A DNA stretch of 24,000 nucleotides from Pradoshia sp. D12. Lineage in GTDB: Bacteria; Bacillota; Bacilli; Bacillales; Pradoshiaceae. The notes below the pieces were generated by a model. It saw only the letters and a program-made list of their open reading frames with translations. It was not told where the DNA came from and did no database searches. The number at the start of each line of letters is the position of its first letter. Within the stretch, counting starts at the first letter, position 1. Shown piece after piece: positions 15,902 through 24,000 of the stretch. The translations under genes were made by a program, and so were the position numbers. The DNA lies in the NCBI RefSeq assembly GCF_008935075.1, contig NZ_CP044545.1, forward strand, positions 2,769,587 to 2,793,586, given 5' to 3'.

Positions 15902-16510
15902 TTATTTAAATTCTCCACGATACAACCATGGAAAAAGGCCATCTAAAAATCGTTCAGTTGCCGGCATAAAATAGGAACCATAATGATAGTCAGGATCAAG
16001 AGTCGTAATAATCCAAGTGCCCTTAGTTGATTGTTCATCTATATACAGTACAGATCCGCCATCATCCGTAGCTATAAGTGTGGTAGCATGCTCTGGTGGC
16101 CAAAATACTCCGTGTTGATGCCATGTTGAATCCTCAAGCGTAATATACTTAAAAAATTCATGGTCATCATTTTTAGTTACTAACCCACTATTTGCATTTT
16201 CTTCAAGCCACCACCAAAAATTCGTCTCGCGTTCTTCCCATTTTTGATTAGGGAGCCATTCCCATGGCTGTGGACCCATAGCCACAATAATACCGCCCTG
16301 ATCAGCAAACTCATAGAACTTCTCTTTATTATCAAGCAGTATTTGACCATTTAATTGAGAAGGAACAATCAACACATCAAATCCTGTTAAATCAAAATCT
16401 TTCAATTCAAGCTGATAAATAAGAGAGTCTATGAATTGCGCATACTTTGGCTCATGAAAAGTTCTATAATGCGGCGCATGCCCGCCATAAATCACAGCTA
16501 TTTTTCTCAT
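15902..16510 (-). CDS. Uncharacterised cytoplasmic protein, paralogue B of a two-gene pair; possibly ThuA-like / class-I glutamine-amidotransferase-like fold
   Basis: 202 aa with no signal peptide or TM segment. The ATG shares one nucleotide with the upstream stop (TAATG at 16512..16508), and AAGGAG lies upstream inside the preceding gene. By eye it is about 35-40 percent identical to the upstream gene in two blocks (VLIV...KEKFYEFADQGGIIV..G...EWLP and PPEHA...DGG..LYID..STKGTWI). The fold assignment is pattern recognition only. Confidence 0.7.
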   Translation of the reverse strand: MRKIAVIYGGHAPHYRTFHEPKYAQFIDSLIYQLELKDFDLTGFDVLIVPSQLNGQILLDNKEKFYEFADQGGIIVAMGPQPWEWLPNQKWEERETNFWWWLEENANSGLVTKNDDHEFFKYITLEDSTWHQHGVFWPPEHATTLIATDDGGSVLYIDEQSTKGTWIITTLDPDYHYGSYFMPATERFLDGLFPWLYRGEFK

Positions 16511-17127
16511 TATGCCTCAACTCCTTTGGTGCGTACTATTTCCTTCTTAAGAACCTCTATAAAATGAGGAGTTATTTGATTTGTTGTGTTTTTCCGCTGA
16601 CCATATCCTAATAAACTCCTGCCAGCATGAACAATAACTGTCCCATTCGTTGTTTCACGATCAATGTACGTAATGGCCTTACCATCTGTAAATGTTAGGC
16701 AAATCTCCGCATGTTTCGGTGGCAAATAAAAACCTCTTGCAAAGAAACCTGCAACACCCTTCGTATATACCATATCCTCTACTTTTACACCTTTAAAAAT
16801 CGGTGAATCCTCAGGAACCTCTACTAGGTAATCCTGATGGCCGCGAATCTTCTTCGGCATCATTGGCGTACAGCCTGGCAGCCATTCTCTGAATAAGTGG
16901 CCACAAAAGACAACAATCTTTCCTTCGTTTAAGAATTGCTCTATTTTTTCTTTATGTTTATACAAATACTCCTGATCTGCAAAATCCGTAATAACCAAAA
17001 CTTTGTATGGAGCCAATTCAATGTTTGCAAACTCATATTCCATTAATTTAGTATGTTGACCGGATGATAATTCTGTTTTATAACCAAATGCATGATTCGG
17101 ACATAGTTCCAGTATTTTAAGTTCCAT
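16510..17127 (-). CDS. Uncharacterised cytoplasmic protein, paralogue A of a two-gene pair; possibly ThuA-like / class-I glutamine-amidotransferase-like fold
   Basis: The start is set at ATG 17127 (MELKILELCPNH...), with AAGGAGGAG at complement 17131-17139. This gives 205 aa. The track's 12-codon upstream extension runs towards repeat unit 1, overlaps it by 13 nt (17151-17163), and has no RBS. Conserved blocks shared with the downstream gene are VLVI...KEKIEQFLNEGKIVVFCGHLFREWLP and PPKHA...DGK.ITYIDRETTNGTVI. Confidence 0.7.
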   Translation of the reverse strand: MELKILELCPNHAFGYKTELSSGQHTKLMEYEFANIELAPYKVLVITDFADQEYLYKHKEKIEQFLNEGKIVVFCGHLFREWLPGCTPMMPKKIRGHQDYLVEVPEDSPIFKGVKVEDMVYTKGVAGFFARGFYLPPKHAEICLTFTDGKAITYIDRETTNGTVIVHAGRSLLGYGQRKNTTNQITPHFIEVLKKEIVRTKGVEA

Positions 17128-17273: not shown

Positions 17274-17520
17274 AATCTAGCTTCAACGGCTAGAAGCTCA
17301 GGACATAAGCATAGTCTCTGCGGAGGGCTACAGGACGTAGGTCACGAAGGCGTTGCCACACGATGTGGCGCTCTTAGCCTTTGTTCCTTAAAGCCTTCCC
17401 CTACGAGCCTCTGTCTTATGCTCTTCGCGGGCCTACAGGATGTAGGTCATGAAGACGTTGCCACACGACGTGGCGCATTTAGTCTTCGTTCCTTAAATCA
17501 GCCGTCTCAGCTTTTTATTT
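17274..17520 (+). repeat. Repeat unit 2 (basic unit carrying two copies of the ~65-nt B module)
   Basis: Positions 17274-17428 recur at 17769-17923 with 153/155 identity (mismatches at 17389 and 17393). Positions 17414-17518 recur at 17662-17766 with 105/105 identity. Confidence 0.9.
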
Positions 17521-17768
17521 AATCCAGCTTCAGGGCCTAGCCGCTCGAGGTCGTAAGAATAGCCACTACGGAGGCCAACACGATGTTGGTCACAAAGACG
17601 TTACCACAGGATGTGGTGTCTTTAGTCTTTGTTCCATCAAACACTCTCCCTGCGCACCTCCTCTTATGCTCTTCGCGGGCCTACAGGATGTAGGTCATGA
17701 AGACGTTGCCACACGACGTGGCGCATTTAGTCTTCGTTCCTTAAATCAGCCGTCTCAGCTTTTTATGT
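17521..17768 (+). repeat. Repeat unit 3 (diverged head and diverged B module, then an exact copy of the unit-2 tail)
   Basis: The head AATCCAGCTTCAGGGCCTAGCCGCTCGAGGTCGTAAG is diverged. The B module at about 17573-17637 has compensatory stem changes. Positions 17662-17766 are identical to 17414-17518. Confidence 0.88.
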
Positions 17769-17953
17769 AATCTAGCTTCAACGGCTAGAAGCTCAGGACA
17801 TAAGCATAGTCTCTGCGGAGGGCTACAGGACGTAGGTCACGAAGGCGTTGCCACACGATGTGGCGCTCTTAGCCTTTGTTCCTAAAAACCTTCCCCTACG
17901 AGCCTCTGTCTTATGCTCTTCGCTTCTGGGCAAGCCGTTTCAGCTTTTTATTC
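17769..17953 (+). repeat. Repeat unit 4 (near-exact copy of the first 155 bp of unit 2, plus a short tail)
   Basis: Positions 17769-17923 match 17274-17428 with 2 mismatches. The tail is TTCTGGGCAAGCCGTTTCAGCTTTTTATTC. Confidence 0.9.
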
Positions 17954-18073
17954 AATCTAGCTTCGACTCCTAGGAGCTCGAGTCATAAGCAAATACTCTG
18001 CGGGGAAGAACTTTCCCTTCGAGTATTCGTCTTATGCTCTTCGCTCCTGTTCAGTCGTCTCAGCTTTTTATTT
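17954..18073 (+). repeat. Repeat unit 5 (basic form); overlaps the 3' end of the ABC ATPase gene
   Basis: Contains the 10-bp palindrome CTCCTAGGAG (17968-17977) and a long hairpin, CATAAGC-AAATACTC-TGCG-GGGAA...TTCCC-TTC-GAGTATT-CGT-CTTATG. It ends CAGCTTTTTATTT. The ATPase stop codon (17983-17985) lies inside it. Confidence 0.88.
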
Positions 18074-18771
18074 TCAAAGTAGTAGCATGCCTCTACTAAT
18101 TTTTTTGTGTAGGGATGTGTTGAGTGGTTTAGAACTTGAGAAGGAGGTCCGCTTTCGACAATGGTCCCTGTCTCAAGTACCATCATTCGATCTGCTACAT
18201 TACCAACAGACTGAATTCGGTGCGTAATGTATAAAACAGACATATGGAATTCAACCTGAAATTTCTTTAATAGATTGATGATTAACTTTTCTGTTTGCGG
18301 ATCCAGAGCAGATGTAATTTCATCGGCTATTAAAAGCTTAGGATTCATTAATAAAGCTCTAATAATAGCTAATCTCTGTTTTTGTCCTCCGGAACATTGG
18401 CTTGGTTTTTTTGCTAATAATTCCGTCGGTAAGTCCGCCTTAGCCATTAATTCTTTTATTTTCTTTTTTATTGATTCCGGCTTTTCCTTTTTAAGTACAA
18501 GCGGTTCCATTAAACTTTTCTCCATTGTCCAAAACGGGTTAAAAGAACGCTCCGGATTTTGATAAATATATTGAATCGTACAACATGGCTCTTTTTCAAC
18601 AAGTCCGCTTGTCGGTGATTGAATTCCCATAATAATTTCAGCCGTTGTAGATTTACCTGACCCTGATTCTCCTATCAAACAAATAAATTCATTGCACAAA
18701 ATCTCAAAATTGATTCCCCGAAGCACATCCTGATTTTGGTAGCTTTTATTTACATCTTGAACTCTTAACAT
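17983..18771 (-). CDS. ABC transporter ATP-binding protein, Opp/Dpp/Nik family (OppF/NikE-like), with a repeat-encoded C-terminal tail
   Basis: 262 aa. Walker A is GESGSGKST, the signature is CSGGQKQRLAIIRAL, Walker B is LLIADEITSALD and the H-loop is YITHR. The HPYTKKL motif typical of this subfamily lies near the expected C-terminus. The last ~29 codons (NKKLRRLNRSEEHKTNTRRESSSPQSICL) read through repeat unit 5. Confidence 0.9.
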   Translation of the reverse strand: MLRVQDVNKSYQNQDVLRGINFEILCNEFICLIGESGSGKSTTAEIIMGIQSPTSGLVEKEPCCTIQYIYQNPERSFNPFWTMEKSLMEPLVLKKEKPESIKKKIKELMAKADLPTELLAKKPSQCSGGQKQRLAIIRALLMNPKLLIADEITSALDPQTEKLIINLLKKFQVEFHMSVLYITHRIQSVGNVADRMMVLETGTIVESGPPSQVLNHSTHPYTKKLVEACYYFENKKLRRLNRSEEHKTNTRRESSSPQSICL

Positions 18772-20265
18772 TCATTGCACTTCCTTCATCAGTTGTTTAT
18801 CACTTAAACTAAAAATCCGATCCGAGATTGCATACGCTACATCTAAATCATGCGTGATAAATAATAGACTGATCCCATGTGAACGGACTTTTTCCTCCAA
18901 GAGTTCCACTACTTCTTTTTTCAATATAGGATCCAGCGCACTTGTGCATTCATCTGCAATCACAAAAGCTGGTTTATTTACCAGAGAGAGTGCGATTAGA
19001 GCCCGGCTCAACATGCCGCCGGAGCACTCATGCGGATACTTGTCCAAAATGTTTTTATTTAACGCGACTTCCACAACACTCTTCTCAGCTTCCACAAGAC
19101 TTATACCGGTTTCTAAAAACTGTTCTTTTATTTTTAATACTGGATTAAATGCCGCCCGTGCATCCTGATAGATAAATGAGCATGTTTTCCAGTAGTGCTT
19201 TTCTCTAAAGGATTTCTCGCGAACAGACTCACCGTCATATGTAACATCGCCAACCCAGTTCTCAGCCGGCAATAATCCGTACAAAGCTCTGGCTATCGTT
19301 GTTTTTCCACTGCCTGAAGGCCCAATCAAACTCACAATCTCTCCTCTTTTGATCGTAAGCTCGATATTTTCAACAATAGTAGTCTCGTCATATGTAACCT
19401 GCTCCAAGTGACAATATAAATCGCGAGACTTGCCGGTCACTGGTGTTGTACCCTTTTGTTTCTTTGTTTTTGAAGACTTCTTCTGTTTATCTTCCAATAA
19501 GAAAGCAAGCGAAACCGATGTGATGAGCAGCATAATCACTGGCGGCAATACAATCCATGTCCATTGGCCAGTTAAGAAAATAGATGTTTGTGTGAAAGCC
19601 ATATTTAACATGCTTCCCCAAGATATCACATTCGGGTCACCCAAACCTAGGAATGCTAAACCTGCTTCTGTCAAAACAGCAGATTGAAATGTCATCACGA
19701 ATTTAGTCTTTATGATGGGCTGCAATTGCGGAAGAATATGAGATTTCAATACATAAAAAGAACTGCCACCAAACAGCGCCGATGCTTTTACAAATTCTCT
19801 TTCTTTTAATGTTAAAACTGAGGATCGAATAATTCTCATATAACCCGGCCACGATAAAAGACTTAAAATGATTACAAGCTGAATTACACCAGAACCCGTA
19901 AAAGCAACAACCAATAATATCAAAAGCAAATTTGGAAGCACTAATAAAATATTGGCCAGCCCGTTAATGAATTTATCGAATTTCGGCAAATATCCCGCTG
20001 CCAGTCCCAGCAATACACTTAAAACTGTCGAACACAGAGCAATACAAAGTCCAATTAAGACACTTGTACGGGTTCCATATAATAATTGGCTAAATATATC
20101 CTGACCTAAACGATTTGTACCCAGCCAATGCTCAGATGAAGGAGGTTCAAACAATCCTCCGCTATAATCCATTGCTGAATAAGGAGAAAGTAATGGACCA
20201 AAGAATGCCAACAGCATGACCACGGCTAAACAAAGTAAAGGGAACTTATAGAACTTTTTCAACAT
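18772..20265 (-). CDS. Fused ABC permease (OppC/DppC/NikC-like) and ATP-binding domain (OppD/NikD-like)
   Basis: A single open frame. The N-terminal ~270 aa are polytopic. A Lys-rich linker follows (EDKQKKSSKTKKQKGTTPVTGKSRD). The NBD has Walker A GPSGSGKTT, signature CSGGMLSRALIA, Walker B FVIADECTSALD and H-loop FITHD. The start is set at ATG 20265 (MLKKFYKF), with GAGGGGG upstream. The track start at 20283 is a less likely extension. Confidence 0.88.
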   Translation of the reverse strand: MLKKFYKFPLLCLAVVMLLAFFGPLLSPYSAMDYSGGLFEPPSSEHWLGTNRLGQDIFSQLLYGTRTSVLIGLCIALCSTVLSVLLGLAAGYLPKFDKFINGLANILLVLPNLLLILLVVAFTGSGVIQLVIILSLLSWPGYMRIIRSSVLTLKEREFVKASALFGGSSFYVLKSHILPQLQPIIKTKFVMTFQSAVLTEAGLAFLGLGDPNVISWGSMLNMAFTQTSIFLTGQWTWIVLPPVIMLLITSVSLAFLLEDKQKKSSKTKKQKGTTPVTGKSRDLYCHLEQVTYDETTIVENIELTIKRGEIVSLIGPSGSGKTTIARALYGLLPAENWVGDVTYDGESVREKSFREKHYWKTCSFIYQDARAAFNPVLKIKEQFLETGISLVEAEKSVVEVALNKNILDKYPHECSGGMLSRALIALSLVNKPAFVIADECTSALDPILKKEVVELLEEKVRSHGISLLFITHDLDVAYAISDRIFSLSDKQLMKEVQ

Positions 20266-21238
20266 GTTTGCCCCCTCTAACACGTGGATCTAGTTTAGGA
20301 TAAATAGAATCTGCCAGTGCATTGCAAATCAAAATCATAACAGCAAATAATAAAAACAGACCATGCATCAATGGGTAATCCCGTGAAAGAATGGACTCTT
20401 TTAATAACTGCCCAATTCCCGGGTAAGAAAATAACGTCTCTACAAAGATTGCTCCTGTAAAGGTGTAGCCAATTCTTATCATAATCAGAGTAAATATAGG
20501 TATTAAAACATTTTTAAACGCATGTCTGAAAACTAACCGGATTTCCCTGACGCCCTTCATCTTCGCAAATTCAATGTAAGGTGAGGAAGCTACCTGAATC
20601 GTTTCATTACGCACGAGTAAATAGATCCTTGTCAGGTTTACCATGGTTAATGTCACTATTGGTAAAATAGCATACTTAGCCGCATCATTAACTTTTACCC
20701 ATATTGATTCGCTATCCATAAACGGTGTATGGGCTCCGCTCATTGGAAGCATATCCAGCATAACTCCAAACACAATAAGCAATAGCATACCGAATAAAAA
20801 TTCGGGTAAAGCGCCAATTGCCAGCATTGTTGACATGAATGTTTTATCACCTTTTTTATGATGAACCCAACCCGATAGCAGTCCTAAAAAAATACCAATT
20901 ACAATGGATAGAACAGAAGAAATTCCGACAATCCATAGCGTGTAAGAAATATGGTCCATTATGATATCATTAACAGGCAATTTATAAGTATATGAAAATC
21001 CAAAATCAAACTGTACGATGCCAACTATATAATCAATAAATTGTTCGGCCATTGAATCATTCAGCCCATAATATTCAATCATTGAATTCTTTTGTTGCTC
21101 TGTTAAAGTTGCACCACTTTCCTGCCCCTCTAAATATTCAAGAGGTCCCCCCGGCATTAGTCGAGGAAGAAAAAAATTTAAGAGAATCAAGATAAGAAGA
21201 AGAGAACCGTACAGCTTAAAAATTTTAATCATATTCAA
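20246..21238 (-). CDS. ABC transporter permease, OppB/DppB/NikB-like
   Basis: 330 aa with six predicted TM segments. It has the binding-protein-dependent transport EAA-type loop region (YIEFAKMKGVREIRLVFRHAFKN) and a C-terminal ...DPRVR motif. It overlaps both neighbouring genes. Confidence 0.9.
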   Translation of the reverse strand: MNMIKIFKLYGSLLLILILLNFFLPRLMPGGPLEYLEGQESGATLTEQQKNSMIEYYGLNDSMAEQFIDYIVGIVQFDFGFSYTYKLPVNDIIMDHISYTLWIVGISSVLSIVIGIFLGLLSGWVHHKKGDKTFMSTMLAIGALPEFLFGMLLLIVFGVMLDMLPMSGAHTPFMDSESIWVKVNDAAKYAILPIVTLTMVNLTRIYLLVRNETIQVASSPYIEFAKMKGVREIRLVFRHAFKNVLIPIFTLIMIRIGYTFTGAIFVETLFSYPGIGQLLKESILSRDYPLMHGLFLLFAVMILICNALADSIYPKLDPRVRGGKHVEKVL

Positions 21239-22808
21239 TAAACGCTGCCTTGTTATCTGTTAATGGAATTCCGTCTGAAATACCACCATATGTGTTAAAC
21301 CATTCATCAAATACATTAGCATCATAAACAAAGTAGAACGGGCGATGGTAAATCACTAATGTAGGCAGCTCTTCAGCTAAAATATCCTGCATAGAATCAA
21401 CTGTTTCGTTACGCTCTTCCCCTTCTTGAGACAGTTGTTTACTAGCCAACTCGTTAAATTCTTGATGATTGAATACAGCATTCCCAGCATATGCATTGCT
21501 TGCCTGACCAGAGAACCATAAGCGGAGGAAATCAGGATCCCCACTTAATCCAATGTGCCCTGTTAAAGCCATATCATATTTCCCTTCACTCATAGCAGTT
21601 GTAAAAGTAGCTGTATCTACTGTTTGAATTTGCAATTTCACCCCTACATCAGCAAGCATTGATCTCATTAATTCGGCTTCCTGAGGAGTAGAAGAAACCA
21701 GAAGTTTTAAGCTAAGCTCTTCTCGAACACCATTTTTATTTTTTTCATATCCGAGTGAATCTAACATTTCATTTGCTTGATCCACATCATAATCATATTT
21801 TTTTACATCTTCATTAAACCAATCCGAATCAGGTGGAATTACCCCTCCGCTACCAACAATGGTTTTGGAATTCCCCAATACTTTTTCTGCTATTTCACCT
21901 CGATTAAGTGCATAGGCAATTGCTTGACGTAGCCTTTTATCACTTAACTGTTCATTTTCCAAATTAAAAACAATACGAACTGCGCTTCCTGTTGGATTAC
22001 TTTGAAGCGCTTTAAACCCTTGTTCTTCCATTTGCTTCACTTCTGTATAGTTATACGTCATGCCGCCGGTTATTTCCCCTTTTTGCAGGGAGAGCATTTT
22101 ATTCTCTACATTCAAATATTGAACTTCCTTAACCGTAACATCACCTTTGAAATAAGCCTCATTTGCTAGGTAACGATAATTACCAGTCGAGCTGTTATAG
22201 CTATCAAGAACATATGGACCTGTACCTATTAATGCATTTTCTTCCGTATATTCCATTGGATTTTCGATTTCTGACCAGATATGCTCTGGTAGAATTGGAA
22301 GAATTCCGGAAATTTCAGTGATAAATGGGGAATATTCCTCGGTCAACGTAATTGCAACTTTGTGATTTGATATTTTCTTTAGTGAAGCTATTTTAGACAT
22401 ATCTGCATTCCACTGGAACGCATGTTTCTTAAAATAGTTATATGAAAAGACAACATCATCGGCGGTTAATGATTCTCCATCATGAAACTGCACATCTTTT
22501 TCTAAATTAAACGTGTATGTTAGCTTGTCCTCAGATACTTCCCAGGAAGATGCCAGCCAAGGAATTACCCCAGTCTCATCTTTCCAAGTAAGCGAGTCAA
22601 AAATGAAACTGCTGCGTAAATATCCTCCGGGACCATTTGAGGTAAATGTAAATGGAGATGGGAACCCACTATCTGCCCATGCAATCTTCACGGTCTTATT
22701 TTTTTCAGATGCCTTTGAATCTGTATTTGTATTTGGTGAAGTGCCACCACCTGAACATCCTGCGAGCAGGATGAATAATGATAGTAGTAAAAATGAAATC
22801 CTTTTCAT
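21225..22808 (-). CDS. Extracellular solute-binding lipoprotein, family 5 (OppA/DppA/NikA-like)
   Basis: 527 aa with a lipoprotein signal and lipobox (LLAGC, Cys18). A Ser/Thr/Asn-rich tether precedes a family-5 SBP body (SWEVSEDKLTYTFNLEKDVQFHDGESLTADDVVFSY). AAGGGAG lies 8 nt upstream of the ATG. Confidence 0.9.
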   Translation of the reverse strand: MKRISFLLLSLFILLAGCSGGGTSPNTNTDSKASEKNKTVKIAWADSGFPSPFTFTSNGPGGYLRSSFIFDSLTWKDETGVIPWLASSWEVSEDKLTYTFNLEKDVQFHDGESLTADDVVFSYNYFKKHAFQWNADMSKIASLKKISNHKVAITLTEEYSPFITEISGILPILPEHIWSEIENPMEYTEENALIGTGPYVLDSYNSSTGNYRYLANEAYFKGDVTVKEVQYLNVENKMLSLQKGEITGGMTYNYTEVKQMEEQGFKALQSNPTGSAVRIVFNLENEQLSDKRLRQAIAYALNRGEIAEKVLGNSKTIVGSGGVIPPDSDWFNEDVKKYDYDVDQANEMLDSLGYEKNKNGVREELSLKLLVSSTPQEAELMRSMLADVGVKLQIQTVDTATFTTAMSEGKYDMALTGHIGLSGDPDFLRLWFSGQASNAYAGNAVFNHQEFNELASKQLSQEGEERNETVDSMQDILAEELPTLVIYHRPFYFVYDANVFDEWFNTYGGISDGIPLTDNKAAFIEYD

Positions 22809-22842: not shown

Positions 22843-22871
22843 ATCATATAACAGTTGATAATGATTATCAA
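22843..22871 (-). promoter_or_regulatory. Sigma-A-type promoter of the ABC operon
   Basis: The minus strand reads TTGATA (complement 22866-22871), a 17-nt spacer, then TATGAT (complement 22843-22848). The -10 element ends about 35 nt upstream of the binding-protein ATG. Confidence 0.6.
22856..22870. promoter_or_regulatory. Fur box, a perfect match to the Bacillus 7-1-7 consensus
   Basis: TGATAAT-G-ATTATCA matches TGATAATNATTATCA at 14/14 specified positions. It overlaps the -35 element and the spacer. A second, degenerate site, TGATGGT-T-CTTATCA (22832-22846, 11/14), overlaps the -10. The surrounding sequence continues as GATAAT-like hexamers: TGATAA TGATTA TCAATA TCATTA. Confidence 0.8.
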
Positions 22872-23109: not shown

Positions 23110-24000
23110 TCATCTGATTCGGTAAACCCAATCCTTAAGAAAATGCTTCGCCGCTTCTTTACCTTGATCAATTAATACTAGCCGCTGATTGTCAGAAATA
23201 GAAAACTCTATAAATCCCGCCTCTTTAATTGGTATAAACACAATGTTTTTAACGAATTTTCTTGAAATATATCTGGCATCATGAGCATTCCTCATCGTTT
23301 CAAATAAAGATGTAAAAAGTTCGATTGCATTATTGATATCACGCTCATGGACCACTGCTTGTTGTTTTTCTGGTACCAGCCTTAATCCCAGCACCGGTCT
23401 CTCAGCGATAACATTATCTTGATCAAACAGCCACATAGGAAAATTACTTAAAACCCCGCCATCTACGATAACCCTTTTCTCCCCTACCGTTCGAAGCGTA
23501 ATCGGCTGAAAGAAAAAGGGGACAGAGCAGCTCATACGAATCGCTCTCGCCACTAAGAACTGATTGGGGTTTATATTATATTTTGGCAGATCATCCGGCA
23601 AAACCATCAATCTTCCATTTGTTAGATCAGATGCAATAACTCTCAATTGTTTATCAGCTAAATCTGCAAATGTCCTAATATTTTTCCTGGCCAATACCTC
23701 TTTAATCCATAGCTCCAAGGCATCCCCTTTGTAAAGTCCCATACTCCAATATAATTTGAGCCATTTGGCTAGTGGAAAATGTTTATTTTTTTTTGTTTCC
23801 AATAGCTTCGTTAATTTAACGCTTTTCATAATTTCATTAATTTCGCTCCCTGAGTACCCCGCTGCTATAAACCCGGCAATGATTGCGCCTGCACTTGTTC
23901 CGGCTACTCTTTTAAACCGATATCCCTGCTTCTCTAATTCAATTACTGCCCCAATAAGAGCAAACCCTTTTATACCTCCTCCGGAAAACACTCCGTCAAT
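23110..24000 (-). CDS. yqhO: Patatin-like phospholipase (YqhO equivalent); the N-terminus runs off the right edge of the window
   Basis: Contains the oxyanion-hole motif SGGGIKG, the nucleophile elbow GTSAG (GxSxG) and the catalytic Asp motif VDGGV. The track starts at GTG 23991, but the frame stays open to 24000 (IDG upstream), so the true start is probably off-window. Confidence 0.88.
   Translation of the reverse strand: MDGVFSGGGIKGFALIGAVIELEKQGYRFKRVAGTSAGAIIAGFIAAGYSGSEINEIMKSVKLTKLLETKKNKHFPLAKWLKLYWSMGLYKGDALELWIKEVLARKNIRTFADLADKQLRVIASDLTNGRLMVLPDDLPKYNINPNQFLVARAIRMSCSVPFFFQPITLRTVGEKRVIVDGGVLSNFPMWLFDQDNVIAERPVLGLRLVPEKQQAVVHERDINNAIELFTSLFETMRNAHDARYISRKFVKNIVFIPIKEAGFIEFSISDNQRLVLIDQGKEAAKHFLKDWVYRIR

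What the first reader, a model, noticed from the sequence alone, without database searches (positions are those of the whole stretch)
15902..17127. Translationally coupled pair of paralogous unknown proteins at the distal end of the Fur-controlled block
The two cytoplasmic ORFs (205 and 202 aa) share two clear homology blocks. The first is (V/I)L(V/I)(I/V)...KEK...F...G.I(V/I)V..G....EWLP. The second is PP.HA....DG....YID...T.GT.I. I estimate 35-40 percent identity by eye in these blocks. The genes are joined by a TAATG stop/start overlap, which suggests a stoichiometric heteromer. The layout is a beta-strand, then a helix, then a G-G/K-I-V-V strand followed by a tight turn. This resembles ThuA-like, beta-galactosidase-middle-domain and class-I glutamine-amidotransferase-like folds. 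At the turn where amidotransferases carry the nucleophile, paralogue A has F-C-G-H and paralogue B has A-M-G-P. That pattern fits an active subunit paired with a degenerate one. I do not recognise either protein as a characterised family. Sitting downstream of an iron-regulated importer, they could process or release the imported cargo.
Basis: inference. Interest (0 to 1): 0.7.

Follow-up and report, generated by a model that had tools for sequence, protein, structure and literature searches.

The report
Iron-regulated two-protein partner of metal-chelate importers
Two overlapping genes encode paralogous proteins of an uncharacterised family that nearly always travel as a pair (sometimes fused), usually sit behind an iron-repressor (Fur) binding site and lie next to metal-chelate importers in several bacterial phyla, so they probably handle imported iron cargo in a way not yet described.

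Summary
On the minus strand, A (17127-16510, 205 aa) and B (16510-15902, 202 aa) share a TAATG stop/start overlap. They are true paralogues (BLASTP E 2e-16; profile-profile E 8e-20).

AlphaFold2 models are confident (pLDDT 89 and 92.5). Both have a class-I glutamine-amidotransferase/ThuA-like fold. Neither protein, nor any of 120 relatives, matches a Pfam or NCBIfam family. The NCBI name "PhoH" is a misnomer.

Comparative genomics supports the cargo idea:
- A sits directly upstream of B in 76 pairs from 79 species loci.
- 63 of those pairs lie within 7.5 kb of a metal-chelate-type ABC importer (Opp/Nik-type or FecCD-type) or of the nitrogenase-like genes found beside such an importer.
- 62 of 74 promoters carry a Fur box.
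- The window has a perfect Fur box over the importer promoter.
- Natural A-B and B-A fusions occur in Proteobacteria and Campylobacter, and all six examined lie next to such importers.

The "active A, dead B" reading is weak. A's Cys75 is kept in only 47 of 76 orthologues, and B is the more conserved subunit. The best reading is an obligate heteromer that handles imported iron chelate in the cytoplasm. The chemistry is unknown. No literature on this family was found.

The parts
16510..17127 (-). Gene A (205 aa plus stop). A-type subunit with a class-I amidotransferase/ThuA-like fold. It carries C75, H77 and H167, and the family-wide D51, Q52, D99, Y100, R131, Y154 and D156.
   Evidence: ORF and sequence. 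100% match to P0001 from Pradoshia sp. D12. AF2 pLDDT 89.2. Foldseek. Conservation.
15902..16510 (-). Gene B (202 aa plus stop). B-type subunit with the same fold. It lacks the Cys and His positions of A. It has invariant H14, E20, S51, Q52, Q81, W85, E92, R94, T96, N97, F98, W99-W101, H131, H133, D172, H176 and E186.
   Evidence: ORF. AF2 pLDDT 92.5. Foldseek. Conservation. 479 relatives.
16508..16512 (-). TAATG stop/start overlap between A and B (translational coupling).
   Evidence: Read from the sequence. The same -1 or -4 nt overlap occurs in 48 of 72 pairs in other species.
17327..17888 (-). Five tandem Bacillaceae-1 RNA motifs (17327-17393, 17432-17498, 17575-17641, 17680-17746, 17822-17888). 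They fill the 850-nt gap between the last importer gene and gene A.
   Evidence: Rfam RF01690, 71-81 bits against a gathering score of 35. Repeat families. No minus-strand promoter-like or terminator-like site in the gap.
17983..18771 (-). ABC ATPase (262 aa) with an oligo_HPY C-terminal region; last importer gene.
   Evidence: Pfam ABC_tran and oligo_HPY.
18772..20283 (-). Fused permease-ATPase (503 aa) of the Opp/Nik-type importer.
   Evidence: Pfam BPD_transp_1 plus ABC_tran.
20246..21238 (-). Permease (330 aa as the listed ORF; the true start may be further downstream).
   Evidence: Pfam BPD_transp_1.
21225..22808 (-). Family-5 solute-binding protein (527 aa). It is roughly equally distant from DppA, HbpA, CntA and NikA.
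   Evidence: Pfam SBP_bac_5. PDB sequence search.
22843..22871 (-). Sigma-A-like promoter TTGATA-17-TATGAT, overlapped by a perfect Fur box (22856-22870, TGATAATGATTATCA).

Best explanation
A and B form an obligate 1:1 heteromer of two ancient paralogous subunit types. A-type subunits have Arg at position 131. B-type subunits have His at the equivalent position and Asp172. Both use a class-I amidotransferase/ThuA-like fold whose classical Cys-His-Glu triad is not maintained.

The complex is made only under iron limitation (Fur repression). It works in the cytoplasm together with metal-chelate ABC importers. The most likely role is to receive the imported iron chelate and free or hand on the metal. 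It would do this through conserved hard-ligand and polar residues in the former amidotransferase pocket(s): Tyr154 and Asp156 in all subfamilies; His167, Asp51/Gln52, Asp99/Tyr100 and Arg131 in A; His131, His133, Asp172, His176 and the Trp99-101 cluster in B.

Shown: paralogy, near-constant pairing and fusion, the fold, Fur boxes, and importer linkage across phyla.

Inferred: physical association with the cargo, the metal-release step, and the identity of the cargo (siderophore, metallophore or haem).

In this genome the pair is the distal part of a Fur-repressed six-gene operon. It is reached by read-through across five Bacillaceae-1 RNA motifs.
For: Pairing. A lies directly upstream of B in 76 pairs from 79 one-per-species loci.

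Fusion. 21 of the 150 best representatives in a search of 1.84 billion proteins are two-domain proteins. Both A-B and B-A orders occur. They come from Pseudomonas/Aeromonas/Marinobacter, Campylobacter and Martelella.

Importer linkage.
- 63 of 76 pairs lie within 7.5 kb of an Opp/Nik-type (18) or Peripla_BP_2/FecCD-type (37) importer, of both types (2), or of the nitrogenase-like genes that accompany a FecCD importer (6) (Pfam).
- All six fusion genes examined lie next to such importers.
- In three of them the fusion gene overlaps the stop of the ABC ATPase gene by 1-4 nt.

Fur.
- The window has a perfect box over the -35 and spacer of the importer promoter.
- 62 of 74 promoters carry a box with at most 2 mismatches (40 with at most 1, 18 perfect). 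Background is 0.023 per 370 nt.
- Most stand-alone Clostridium-type pairs with unrelated neighbours have such a box 70-200 nt upstream of A (for example L011, L013, L014, L018, L020, L023, L025). A few do not (L001/L008, L021, L066).

Fold..

Conserved residues..

Precedent. A ThuA-like alpha/beta/alpha domain holds a mononuclear Fe3+ (2 Tyr + Glu, with a nearby His) in Paracoccus dimethylformamidase (PMC7686228). That enzyme, 6lvb, was a weak Foldseek hit of A.
Against: - No direct evidence of metal or chelate binding exists.
- No complex model could be computed, so it is unknown whether the conserved residues form one composite site.
- 13 of 76 pairs have no importer within 7.5 kb.
- In the window an 850-nt gap with structured RNA motifs separates the pair from the Fur promoter. 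No Fur box lies directly upstream of A.
- The associated binding proteins are not close to any binding protein with a known iron ligand. The FecCD-linked one is nearest to uncharacterised 4ovk, then MolA (HI_1472) and H. pylori CeuE. The cargo may therefore not be an iron chelate in every lineage.
- The 79 loci were the best matches to the window's B and are almost all Bacillota.
Confidence: 0.45

Rival explanations
1. A is a Cys-His amidohydrolase (amidotransferase-like glutaminase or amidase) that cleaves an amide bond in the imported chelator or another imported amide. B is a catalytically dead scaffold.
For: By register with PabA (sequence written from memory), the window's A has C75 at the nucleophile position (VVFCGH against LGVCLGH). 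H167 sits where the triad His lies (GTVIVHAG against GVQFHPE). The fold is confirmed. C or S occupies position 75 in 62 of 76 orthologues, and H167 is present in 74 of 76.
Against: - Position 75 is G, F, A, N, Q, T or Y in 14 of 76 orthologues. It is L in the second pair's A-type subunit and G or N in most fusion proteins.
- The triad Glu position is Gly.
- H167 is kept even where the nucleophile is lost, so its role cannot be only to activate Cys.
- B is more conserved than A and has its own invariant polar residues, which a passive scaffold would not need.
Confidence: 0.15
2. An iron-dependent metallo-hydrolase of the dimethylformamidase type. The pocket binds a catalytic Fe3+ through Tyr and carboxylate ligands and hydrolyses the imported chelator.
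For: The ThuA-like domain of DMFase binds Fe3+ via two Tyr and one Glu, with an essential His (PMC7686228). DMFase and the related N-acetyl-beta-phenylalanine acylase appear among A's Foldseek hits (ranks 27-50). Tyr154 and Asp156 are universal in the family, and His167 and Tyr100 are conserved in A.
Against: The fold match is weak (E 5.5e-3, TM 0.48). No residue-level superposition was possible. An iron-requiring enzyme made only under iron starvation is counter-intuitive.
Confidence: 0.1
3. An accessory or regulatory subunit of the importer itself (assembly, gating or ATPase control) with no chemistry on the cargo.
For: The fusion genes overlap the stop of the ABC ATPase gene in Campylobacter, Martelella and an unnamed metagenome contig, L094. 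The same pair accompanies two mechanistically different importer classes. That fits a generic cytoplasmic docking role.
Against: Stand-alone pairs still carrying Fur boxes exist in Clostridium. Some genomes have two pairs for one importer. The two importer classes have unrelated ATPase and permease architectures, so a shared docking surface is not obvious.
Confidence: 0.15
4. A Fur-regulated enzyme unrelated to transport, for example an iron-sparing isozyme or a stress enzyme. Its proximity to importers would reflect only shared regulation.
For: 13 of 76 pairs are stand-alone bicistronic units with unrelated neighbours, such as two-component systems, urease genes, a PTS regulator and RNase R.
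Against: Adjacency to importers recurs in Bacillota, Gammaproteobacteria, Alphaproteobacteria, Campylobacter and two unnamed metagenome contigs. It occurs with two unrelated importer types and with tight gene overlaps.
Confidence: 0.1

Closest known systems
ThuA-like / GATase1-like proteins of unknown function (PDB 4jqs BACUNI_01602, 2gk3 STM3548, 3fij lin1909; S. meliloti ThuA as the family name-giver)
   Same: Same alpha/beta/alpha fold (Foldseek E 1e-5 to 1e-4, TM 0.5-0.6). No working Cys-His-Glu triad. ThuA is likewise encoded with an ABC importer (established knowledge of the thuEFGKAB operon). UniRef labels some B relatives 'ThuA-like domain-containing protein'.
   Different: No match to the ThuA Pfam model or any other, even at E 1. 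The proteins here are an obligate pair of two paralogous subunit types. They are Fur-regulated and next to metal-chelate importers rather than sugar importers. No ThuB-type oxidoreductase is nearby.
Class-I glutamine amidotransferases (PabA, TrpG, GuaA N-domain)
   Same: Same fold. In the window's A, Cys75 and His167 fall at the catalytic Cys and His positions.
   Different: Cys is not conserved (47 of 76). There is no Glu, no Pfam GATase hit and no synthase partner. B lacks both residues.
Paracoccus dimethylformamidase, domain III (6lvb; PMC7686228)
   Same: A ThuA-like fold used to hold an Fe3+ ion through Tyr and carboxylate ligands with a nearby His. It works as a hetero-oligomer of two different subunits. 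It is a weak Foldseek hit of A.
   Different: It is a 760-aa three-domain large subunit plus an unrelated small subunit. It is not iron-regulated or transporter-linked as far as is known. Ligand equivalence could not be tested here.
Cytoplasmic haem or siderophore handling proteins encoded in Fur-controlled uptake operons (HemS/ChuS/PhuS; Fes/BesA esterases; ViuB/YqjH and FhuF reductases)
   Same: The same genomic logic: a soluble cytoplasmic protein co-regulated with, and adjacent to, a chelate importer. ChuS-type proteins are also built from two paralogous halves (established knowledge).
   Different: Unrelated folds and cofactors. No Pfam hit of A or B to any of these families.

Membership tests
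Class-I glutamine amidotransferase (triad enzymes, Pfam GATase PF00117) | Alpha/beta/alpha flavodoxin-like fold with a nucleophile elbow | tested here: met
   Foldseek hits to PabA, GuaA, TrpG, 2a9v and 1o1y at E 1e-4 to 1e-3, TM about 0.5-0.6.
Class-I glutamine amidotransferase (triad enzymes, Pfam GATase PF00117) | Conserved catalytic Cys at the elbow | tested here: not met
   C75 is present in the window's A but in only 47 of 76 orthologues (S in 15, other residues in 14). B has F, L or M at this position.
Class-I glutamine amidotransferase (triad enzymes, Pfam GATase PF00117) | His-x-Glu completing the triad | tested here: not met
   A has H167-A-G169, with no Glu. B has T169 at the His position.
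Class-I glutamine amidotransferase (triad enzymes, Pfam GATase PF00117) | Match to the family profile | tested here: not met
   No GATase-family hit for the two proteins or for 120 relatives at E up to 1.
ThuA (Pfam PF06283) | Match to the family profile | tested here: not met
   No ThuA hit at E up to 1. There were only sub-threshold hits to the families DUF7408, Glyco_hydro_42M, DUF4350 and ABC_transp_aux.
ThuA (Pfam PF06283) | Fold similarity to solved ThuA-like proteins | tested here: met
   4jqs is the top hit of B (E 9.5e-6, TM 0.53).
ThuA (Pfam PF06283) | Operon with a sugar ABC importer and a ThuB-type oxidoreductase | tested here: not met
   Neighbours are SBP_bac_5 or Peripla_BP_2/FecCD importers. 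No Gfo/Idh/MocA gene is present.
Fur regulon | Fur box in the promoter of the transcription unit | tested here: met
   A perfect 7-1-7 box at 22856-22870 overlaps the promoter. 62 of 74 homologous operons carry a box with at most 2 mismatches, against 0.023 expected per 370 nt.
Fur regulon | Derepression under iron limitation or in a fur mutant | not testable with these tools
   This needs expression data. No paper on this family was found.
Dimethylformamidase-type ThuA-like Fe3+ hydrolase | 2-Tyr-1-carboxylate Fe3+ site with an essential His in the ThuA-like domain | tested here: inconclusive
   There is a weak fold hit (6lvb, E 5.5e-3), and conserved Tyr, Asp and His residues exist.
Known cytoplasmic iron-release proteins (Fes/BesA, SIP/ViuB, FhuF, HemS/ChuS) | Sequence or fold membership | tested here: not met
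   No Pfam or NCBIfam hit. The Foldseek lists contain none of these families.
PhoH (the name given by NCBI to P0001 and relatives) | PhoH ATPase domain | tested here: not met
   No PhoH domain or P-loop family hit. The name is a misannotation.

The most novel reading that the evidence does not exclude
A and B, often with a third conserved ~172-aa FmdE-like protein, form a previously unrecognised cytoplasmic machine found in several phyla. It takes metal chelates from both type-II (FecCD) and Opp/Nik-type importers and strips the metal from them. This would be a general 'de-chelation' step that is currently unexplained for many chelates. It would also explain why the same module sits beside chelator-degrading enzymes as different as a nitrogenase-like reductase (Clostridia) and a C-P lyase (Pseudomonas/Aeromonas mobile element).
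Probability: 0.25. Interest if true: 0.8.

Novelty: new variant of a known kind. Interest (0 to 1): 0.62.

Why it matters
How iron, or another metal, leaves a chelate after import is known for only a few siderophores and for haem. This work defines a compact, testable candidate for that missing step:
- two always-paired paralogues with no family assignment;
- Fur boxes upstream in dozens of genera;
- adjacency to two unrelated importer classes from Bacillota to Proteobacteria;
- natural fusions that argue for a 1:1 complex.

It also corrects a misleading database name (PhoH). It gives specific residues to mutate: Y154, D156, H167 and R131 in A; H131, H133, D172 and H176 in B. Finally, it points to two unexplored gene clusters that may reveal new cargo chemistry: a Fur-linked nitrogenase-like system and an importer-linked C-P lyase.

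Tried and rejected
- Pfam, NCBIfam and PDB sequence searches with single sequences and with profiles found no family.
- Model coordinates are not exposed to scripts. Pocket mapping and superposition on DMFase or PabA could not be done.
- Literature searches found nothing on this family. Terms tried included ThuA-like + siderophore, nitrogenase-like + FecCD, nitrogenase-like + Fur regulon, amidotransferase-like + Fur box, FmdE + siderophore, and phnGHIJKL + TonB + ICE. The only useful paper was the DMFase structure.
- The NCBI name 'phosphate starvation-inducible protein PhoH' was considered and rejected because there is no PhoH domain.
- A Fur box directly upstream of A in the window was looked for and not found at up to 3 mismatches.
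- A first version of the promoter count under-counted because over-extended ORF starts broke the operon walk. It was debugged and corrected.
- The cargo could not be assigned from the binding proteins. The SBP_bac_5 protein is equidistant from DppA, HbpA, CntA and NikA. The Peripla_BP_2 protein is nearest to uncharacterised 4ovk, then MolA and H. pylori CeuE.
- The FmdE-like third protein and the LysR regulator seen elsewhere are not encoded in this window.
Full report
**1. What is in the window**

Two minus-strand ORFs occupy 15902-17127.
- A runs 17127->16513 with stop TAA at 16512-16510 (205 aa).
- B runs 16510->15905 with its stop at 15904-15902 (202 aa).
- The A stop and the B start share one base (TAATG).
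- Each start has a good ribosome-binding site: AGGAGG 7 nt before A and AAGGAG 10 nt before B.
- The 205-aa start of A is confirmed by a 100%-identical database protein from Pradoshia sp. D12.

BLASTP of A against B gives E 2e-16 with 28% identity over 173 aa. Profile-profile comparison of the two families gives E 8e-20.

**2. Surroundings in the window**

Upstream on the same strand lies an Opp/Nik-type importer:
- SBP_bac_5 binding protein (21225-22808);
- permease (20246-21238);
- fused permease-ATPase (18772-20283);
- ATPase (17983-18771).

A zero-mismatch Fur box, TGATAATGATTATCA, sits at 22856-22870. It overlaps a TTGATA-17-TATGAT promoter-like site just upstream of the binding-protein gene.

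Between the ATPase gene and A lie about 850 nt. This gap holds five tandem Bacillaceae-1 RNA motifs on the operon strand (Rfam RF01690, 71-81 bits). No minus-strand promoter-like or terminator-like site is found there. No Fur box lies directly before A. In other genera the corresponding gap is 13-70 nt. In this genome, Fur control of the pair therefore depends on read-through.

Downstream genes follow the B. subtilis yqhQ-yqhR-aroQ-yqhT order and are unrelated to the pair.

**3. Family and fold**

Neither protein matches Pfam, NCBIfam or any PDB sequence. None of 120 relatives matches a Pfam family either. There are only sub-threshold hits to the families DUF7408, Glyco_hydro_42M, DUF4350 and ABC_transp_aux.

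The NCBI name 'PhoH' given to A and some relatives has no support.

AlphaFold2 models are confident: pLDDT 89.2 and pTM 0.89 for A, and pLDDT 92.5 and pTM 0.91 for B. Foldseek against the PDB places both in the class-I amidotransferase/ThuA-like fold. Hits include 4jqs, 2gk3, 3fij, GH42 middle domains, PabA and GuaA, at E about 1e-5 to 1e-3 and TM 0.5-0.6.

**4. Are A and B a heteromer?**

Yes, by three independent lines of comparative evidence.
- In 79 one-per-species genome loci retrieved with B, an A orthologue lies directly upstream of B in 76 pairs.
- The stop/start overlap is -1 or -4 nt in 48 of 72 pairs.
- A profile search of 1.84 billion representative proteins found only 429 relatives. 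Of the best 150, 21 are two-domain proteins. Their sequences show genuine, divergent A-B fusions and also B-A fusions. These come from Pseudomonas/Aeromonas/Marinobacter, Campylobacter and Martelella.

Two subunit lineages are ancient. A-type subunits carry R131 and G169. B-type subunits carry His at the 131-equivalent position and D172. This holds even in a diverged second pair found in Lysinibacillus and Staphylococcus. W82, Y154 and D156 are shared by all four subfamilies.

**5. Linkage to importers and to Fur**

Of the 76 pairs:
- 37 are divergent from a Peripla_BP_2-FecCD-ATPase operon;
- 18 lie directly downstream of an Opp/Nik-type operon like the window's;
- 2 have both importer types nearby;
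- 6 are clostridial. Four of these show, within 7.5 kb, a FecCD importer together with a NifH-like gene and two small NifD/K-like genes. For the other two (on shorter contigs) the scan registered only the nitrogenase-like genes;
- 13 are stand-alone, with unrelated neighbours.

A Fur box with at most 2 mismatches lies in 62 of 74 assessable operon promoters. Of these, 40 have at most 1 mismatch and 18 are perfect. Background is 0.023 per 370 nt. Most stand-alone Clostridium-type pairs are included, though a few (L001/L008, L021, L066) lack a box.

All six fusion genes examined lie next to an importer:

| Source | Gene arrangement |
|---|---|
| Pseudomonas/Aeromonas conjugative element | LysR < fusion > Peripla_BP_2 > FecCD > ATPase > 172-aa protein > PhnGHIJKL > TonB-dependent receptor |
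| Campylobacter portucalensis | Peripla_BP_2 > FecCD > ATPase > fusion |
| Martelella | Peripla_BP_2 > FecCD > ATPase > fusion > 170-aa protein |
| L092 (unnamed NCBI assembly) | ExbBD ... B-A fusion > Peripla_BP_2 > ATPase > FecCD > FecCD |
| L093 (public sequencing-run assembly) | fusion divergent from SBP_bac_5 < 171-aa protein < permease < permease-ATPase-ATPase < HupE/UreJ |
| L094 (metagenome contig) | FecCD > ATPase > fusion |

In three of these the fusion gene overlaps the ATPase stop by 1-4 nt.

The ~172-aa protein is a third conserved component. Two of four members match Pfam FmdE at E 6.6e-4. It is not encoded in this window.

**6. The catalytic-Cys idea**

By register with PabA (written from memory), C75 and H167 of the window's A occupy the catalytic Cys and His positions, and G169 replaces the Glu. 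Among 76 A orthologues, position 75 is C in 47, S in 15, and G, F, A, N, Q, T or Y in 14. H167 is present in 74. The second pair's A-type subunit has L at 75 and G at 167. Most fusions have G or N at position 75.

B has F, L or M at the Cys position and T at the His position. Even so, B is the more conserved subunit: 57-77% identity to the window's B, against 41-62% for A in the same loci. B also carries invariant H14, E20, Q81, E92, R94, N97, W99-101, H131, H133, D172, H176 and E186.

A triad-type amidase with a dead partner is therefore unlikely as the family's general mechanism.

**7. Most likely mechanism**

Shown:
- an obligate two-subunit protein with a remodelled amidotransferase-like pocket;
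- a Fur-type operator upstream in most lineages examined;
- adjacency to metal-chelate-type importers of two unrelated architectures, in several phyla.

Inferred: the protein acts in the cytoplasm on what the importer delivers. Most simply, it binds the iron chelate and releases or passes on the metal. The conserved Tyr, Asp and His residues are typical hard Fe3+ ligands. A ThuA-like domain that holds Fe3+ through two Tyr and one Glu, with an essential His, has a structural precedent in Paracoccus dimethylformamidase (PMC7686228). That enzyme was a weak fold hit of A.

I could not test ligand equivalence or predict the complex. The rival explanations are a Cys/Ser-His amidase, an Fe-dependent hydrolase, an importer accessory subunit, and a transport-unrelated Fur-regulon enzyme. 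The cargo is unassigned because the binding proteins are not close to any with a known iron ligand.

**8. Novelty and verdict**

No paper on this family was found. Databases call the proteins hypothetical, 'ThuA-like domain-containing' or, wrongly, 'PhoH'.

The fold is known, and cytoplasmic cargo-handling proteins next to iron importers are a known kind. A paired or fused amidotransferase-like module in that role is not known. I rate it a new variant of a known kind, with interest about 0.6.

Noticed in passing
window 17327-17888 (minus strand): Five tandem copies of the Bacillaceae-1 RNA motif (Rfam RF01690, 71-81 bits) lie inside an operon, between the last ABC importer gene and gene A. A related Pradoshia MAG has a gap of about 500 nt at the same place, while other genera have 13-70 nt. 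The effect on read-through or mRNA stability is unknown.
   Followed up: partly
L012, L015, L016, L022 (Clostridium lamae, Cellulosilyticum, Romboutsia, a Bacillota MAG), about 1-6 kb upstream of the pair: A Fur-box-preceded cluster encodes a NifH-like protein (E 5e-79 to C. pasteurianum NifH) and two small NifD/K-like proteins (nearest NifE and BchB). A Peripla_BP_2-FecCD-ATPase importer is linked to it. A Crp/Fnr regulator lies between the cluster and the pair. This looks like an iron-regulated nitrogenase-like system of unknown substrate.
   Followed up: partly
L087-L089 10001-21320 (Pseudomonas aeruginosa/stutzeri, Aeromonas; Trb-type conjugative element): A fused A-B gene heads an operon with a FecCD-type importer, the FmdE-like protein, a complete PhnGHIJKL C-P lyase core and a TonB-dependent receptor. 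A LysR gene is divergent from it. This suggests uptake and breakdown of a metal-chelating phosphonate on a mobile element.
   Followed up: partly
L003 9308-9832; L086 3453-3977; L087 14520-15038; L091 11298-11810; L093 7527-8042: A conserved ~172-aa protein accompanies the pair or fusion in Bacillota, Gamma- and Alphaproteobacteria and one unnamed metagenome assembly (L093). It has invariant YHG, GPG.RD and E.VTR motifs and a weak Pfam FmdE match. It is absent from this window.
   Followed up: partly
L084 8539-9770 and equivalents in L040-L056, L070-L075: Lysinibacillus and some Staphylococcus species (S. equorum, S. shinii) carry a second, diverged pair (about 25-35% identity). It is encoded as the first two genes of the FecCD importer operon, divergent from the main pair, and shares one Fur-box region with it.
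   Followed up: partly
L046, L057, L067, L069, L077, L079, L082, L086 (Paenibacillus, Brevibacillus and other Bacillales), directly downstream of B: The operon continues with an FtsE/FtsX-like ATPase-permease pair and two predicted secreted proteins with no Pfam match. A Fur-box-preceded LysR gene lies upstream. This is a possible extracellular iron-mobilising module.
   Followed up: no
P0001, P0032, P0036, P0040, P0056: NCBI annotates A and several orthologues as 'phosphate starvation-inducible protein PhoH', although there is no PhoH domain. One copy is attributed to Vibrio vulnificus, which I guess is a contaminant contig.
   Followed up: partly
window 23110-23991 (minus strand): A patatin-like phospholipase gene lies just upstream of the Fur-controlled promoter on the same strand. 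A T-rich hairpin-like stretch separates it from the promoter. It is probably a separate transcription unit.
   Followed up: no
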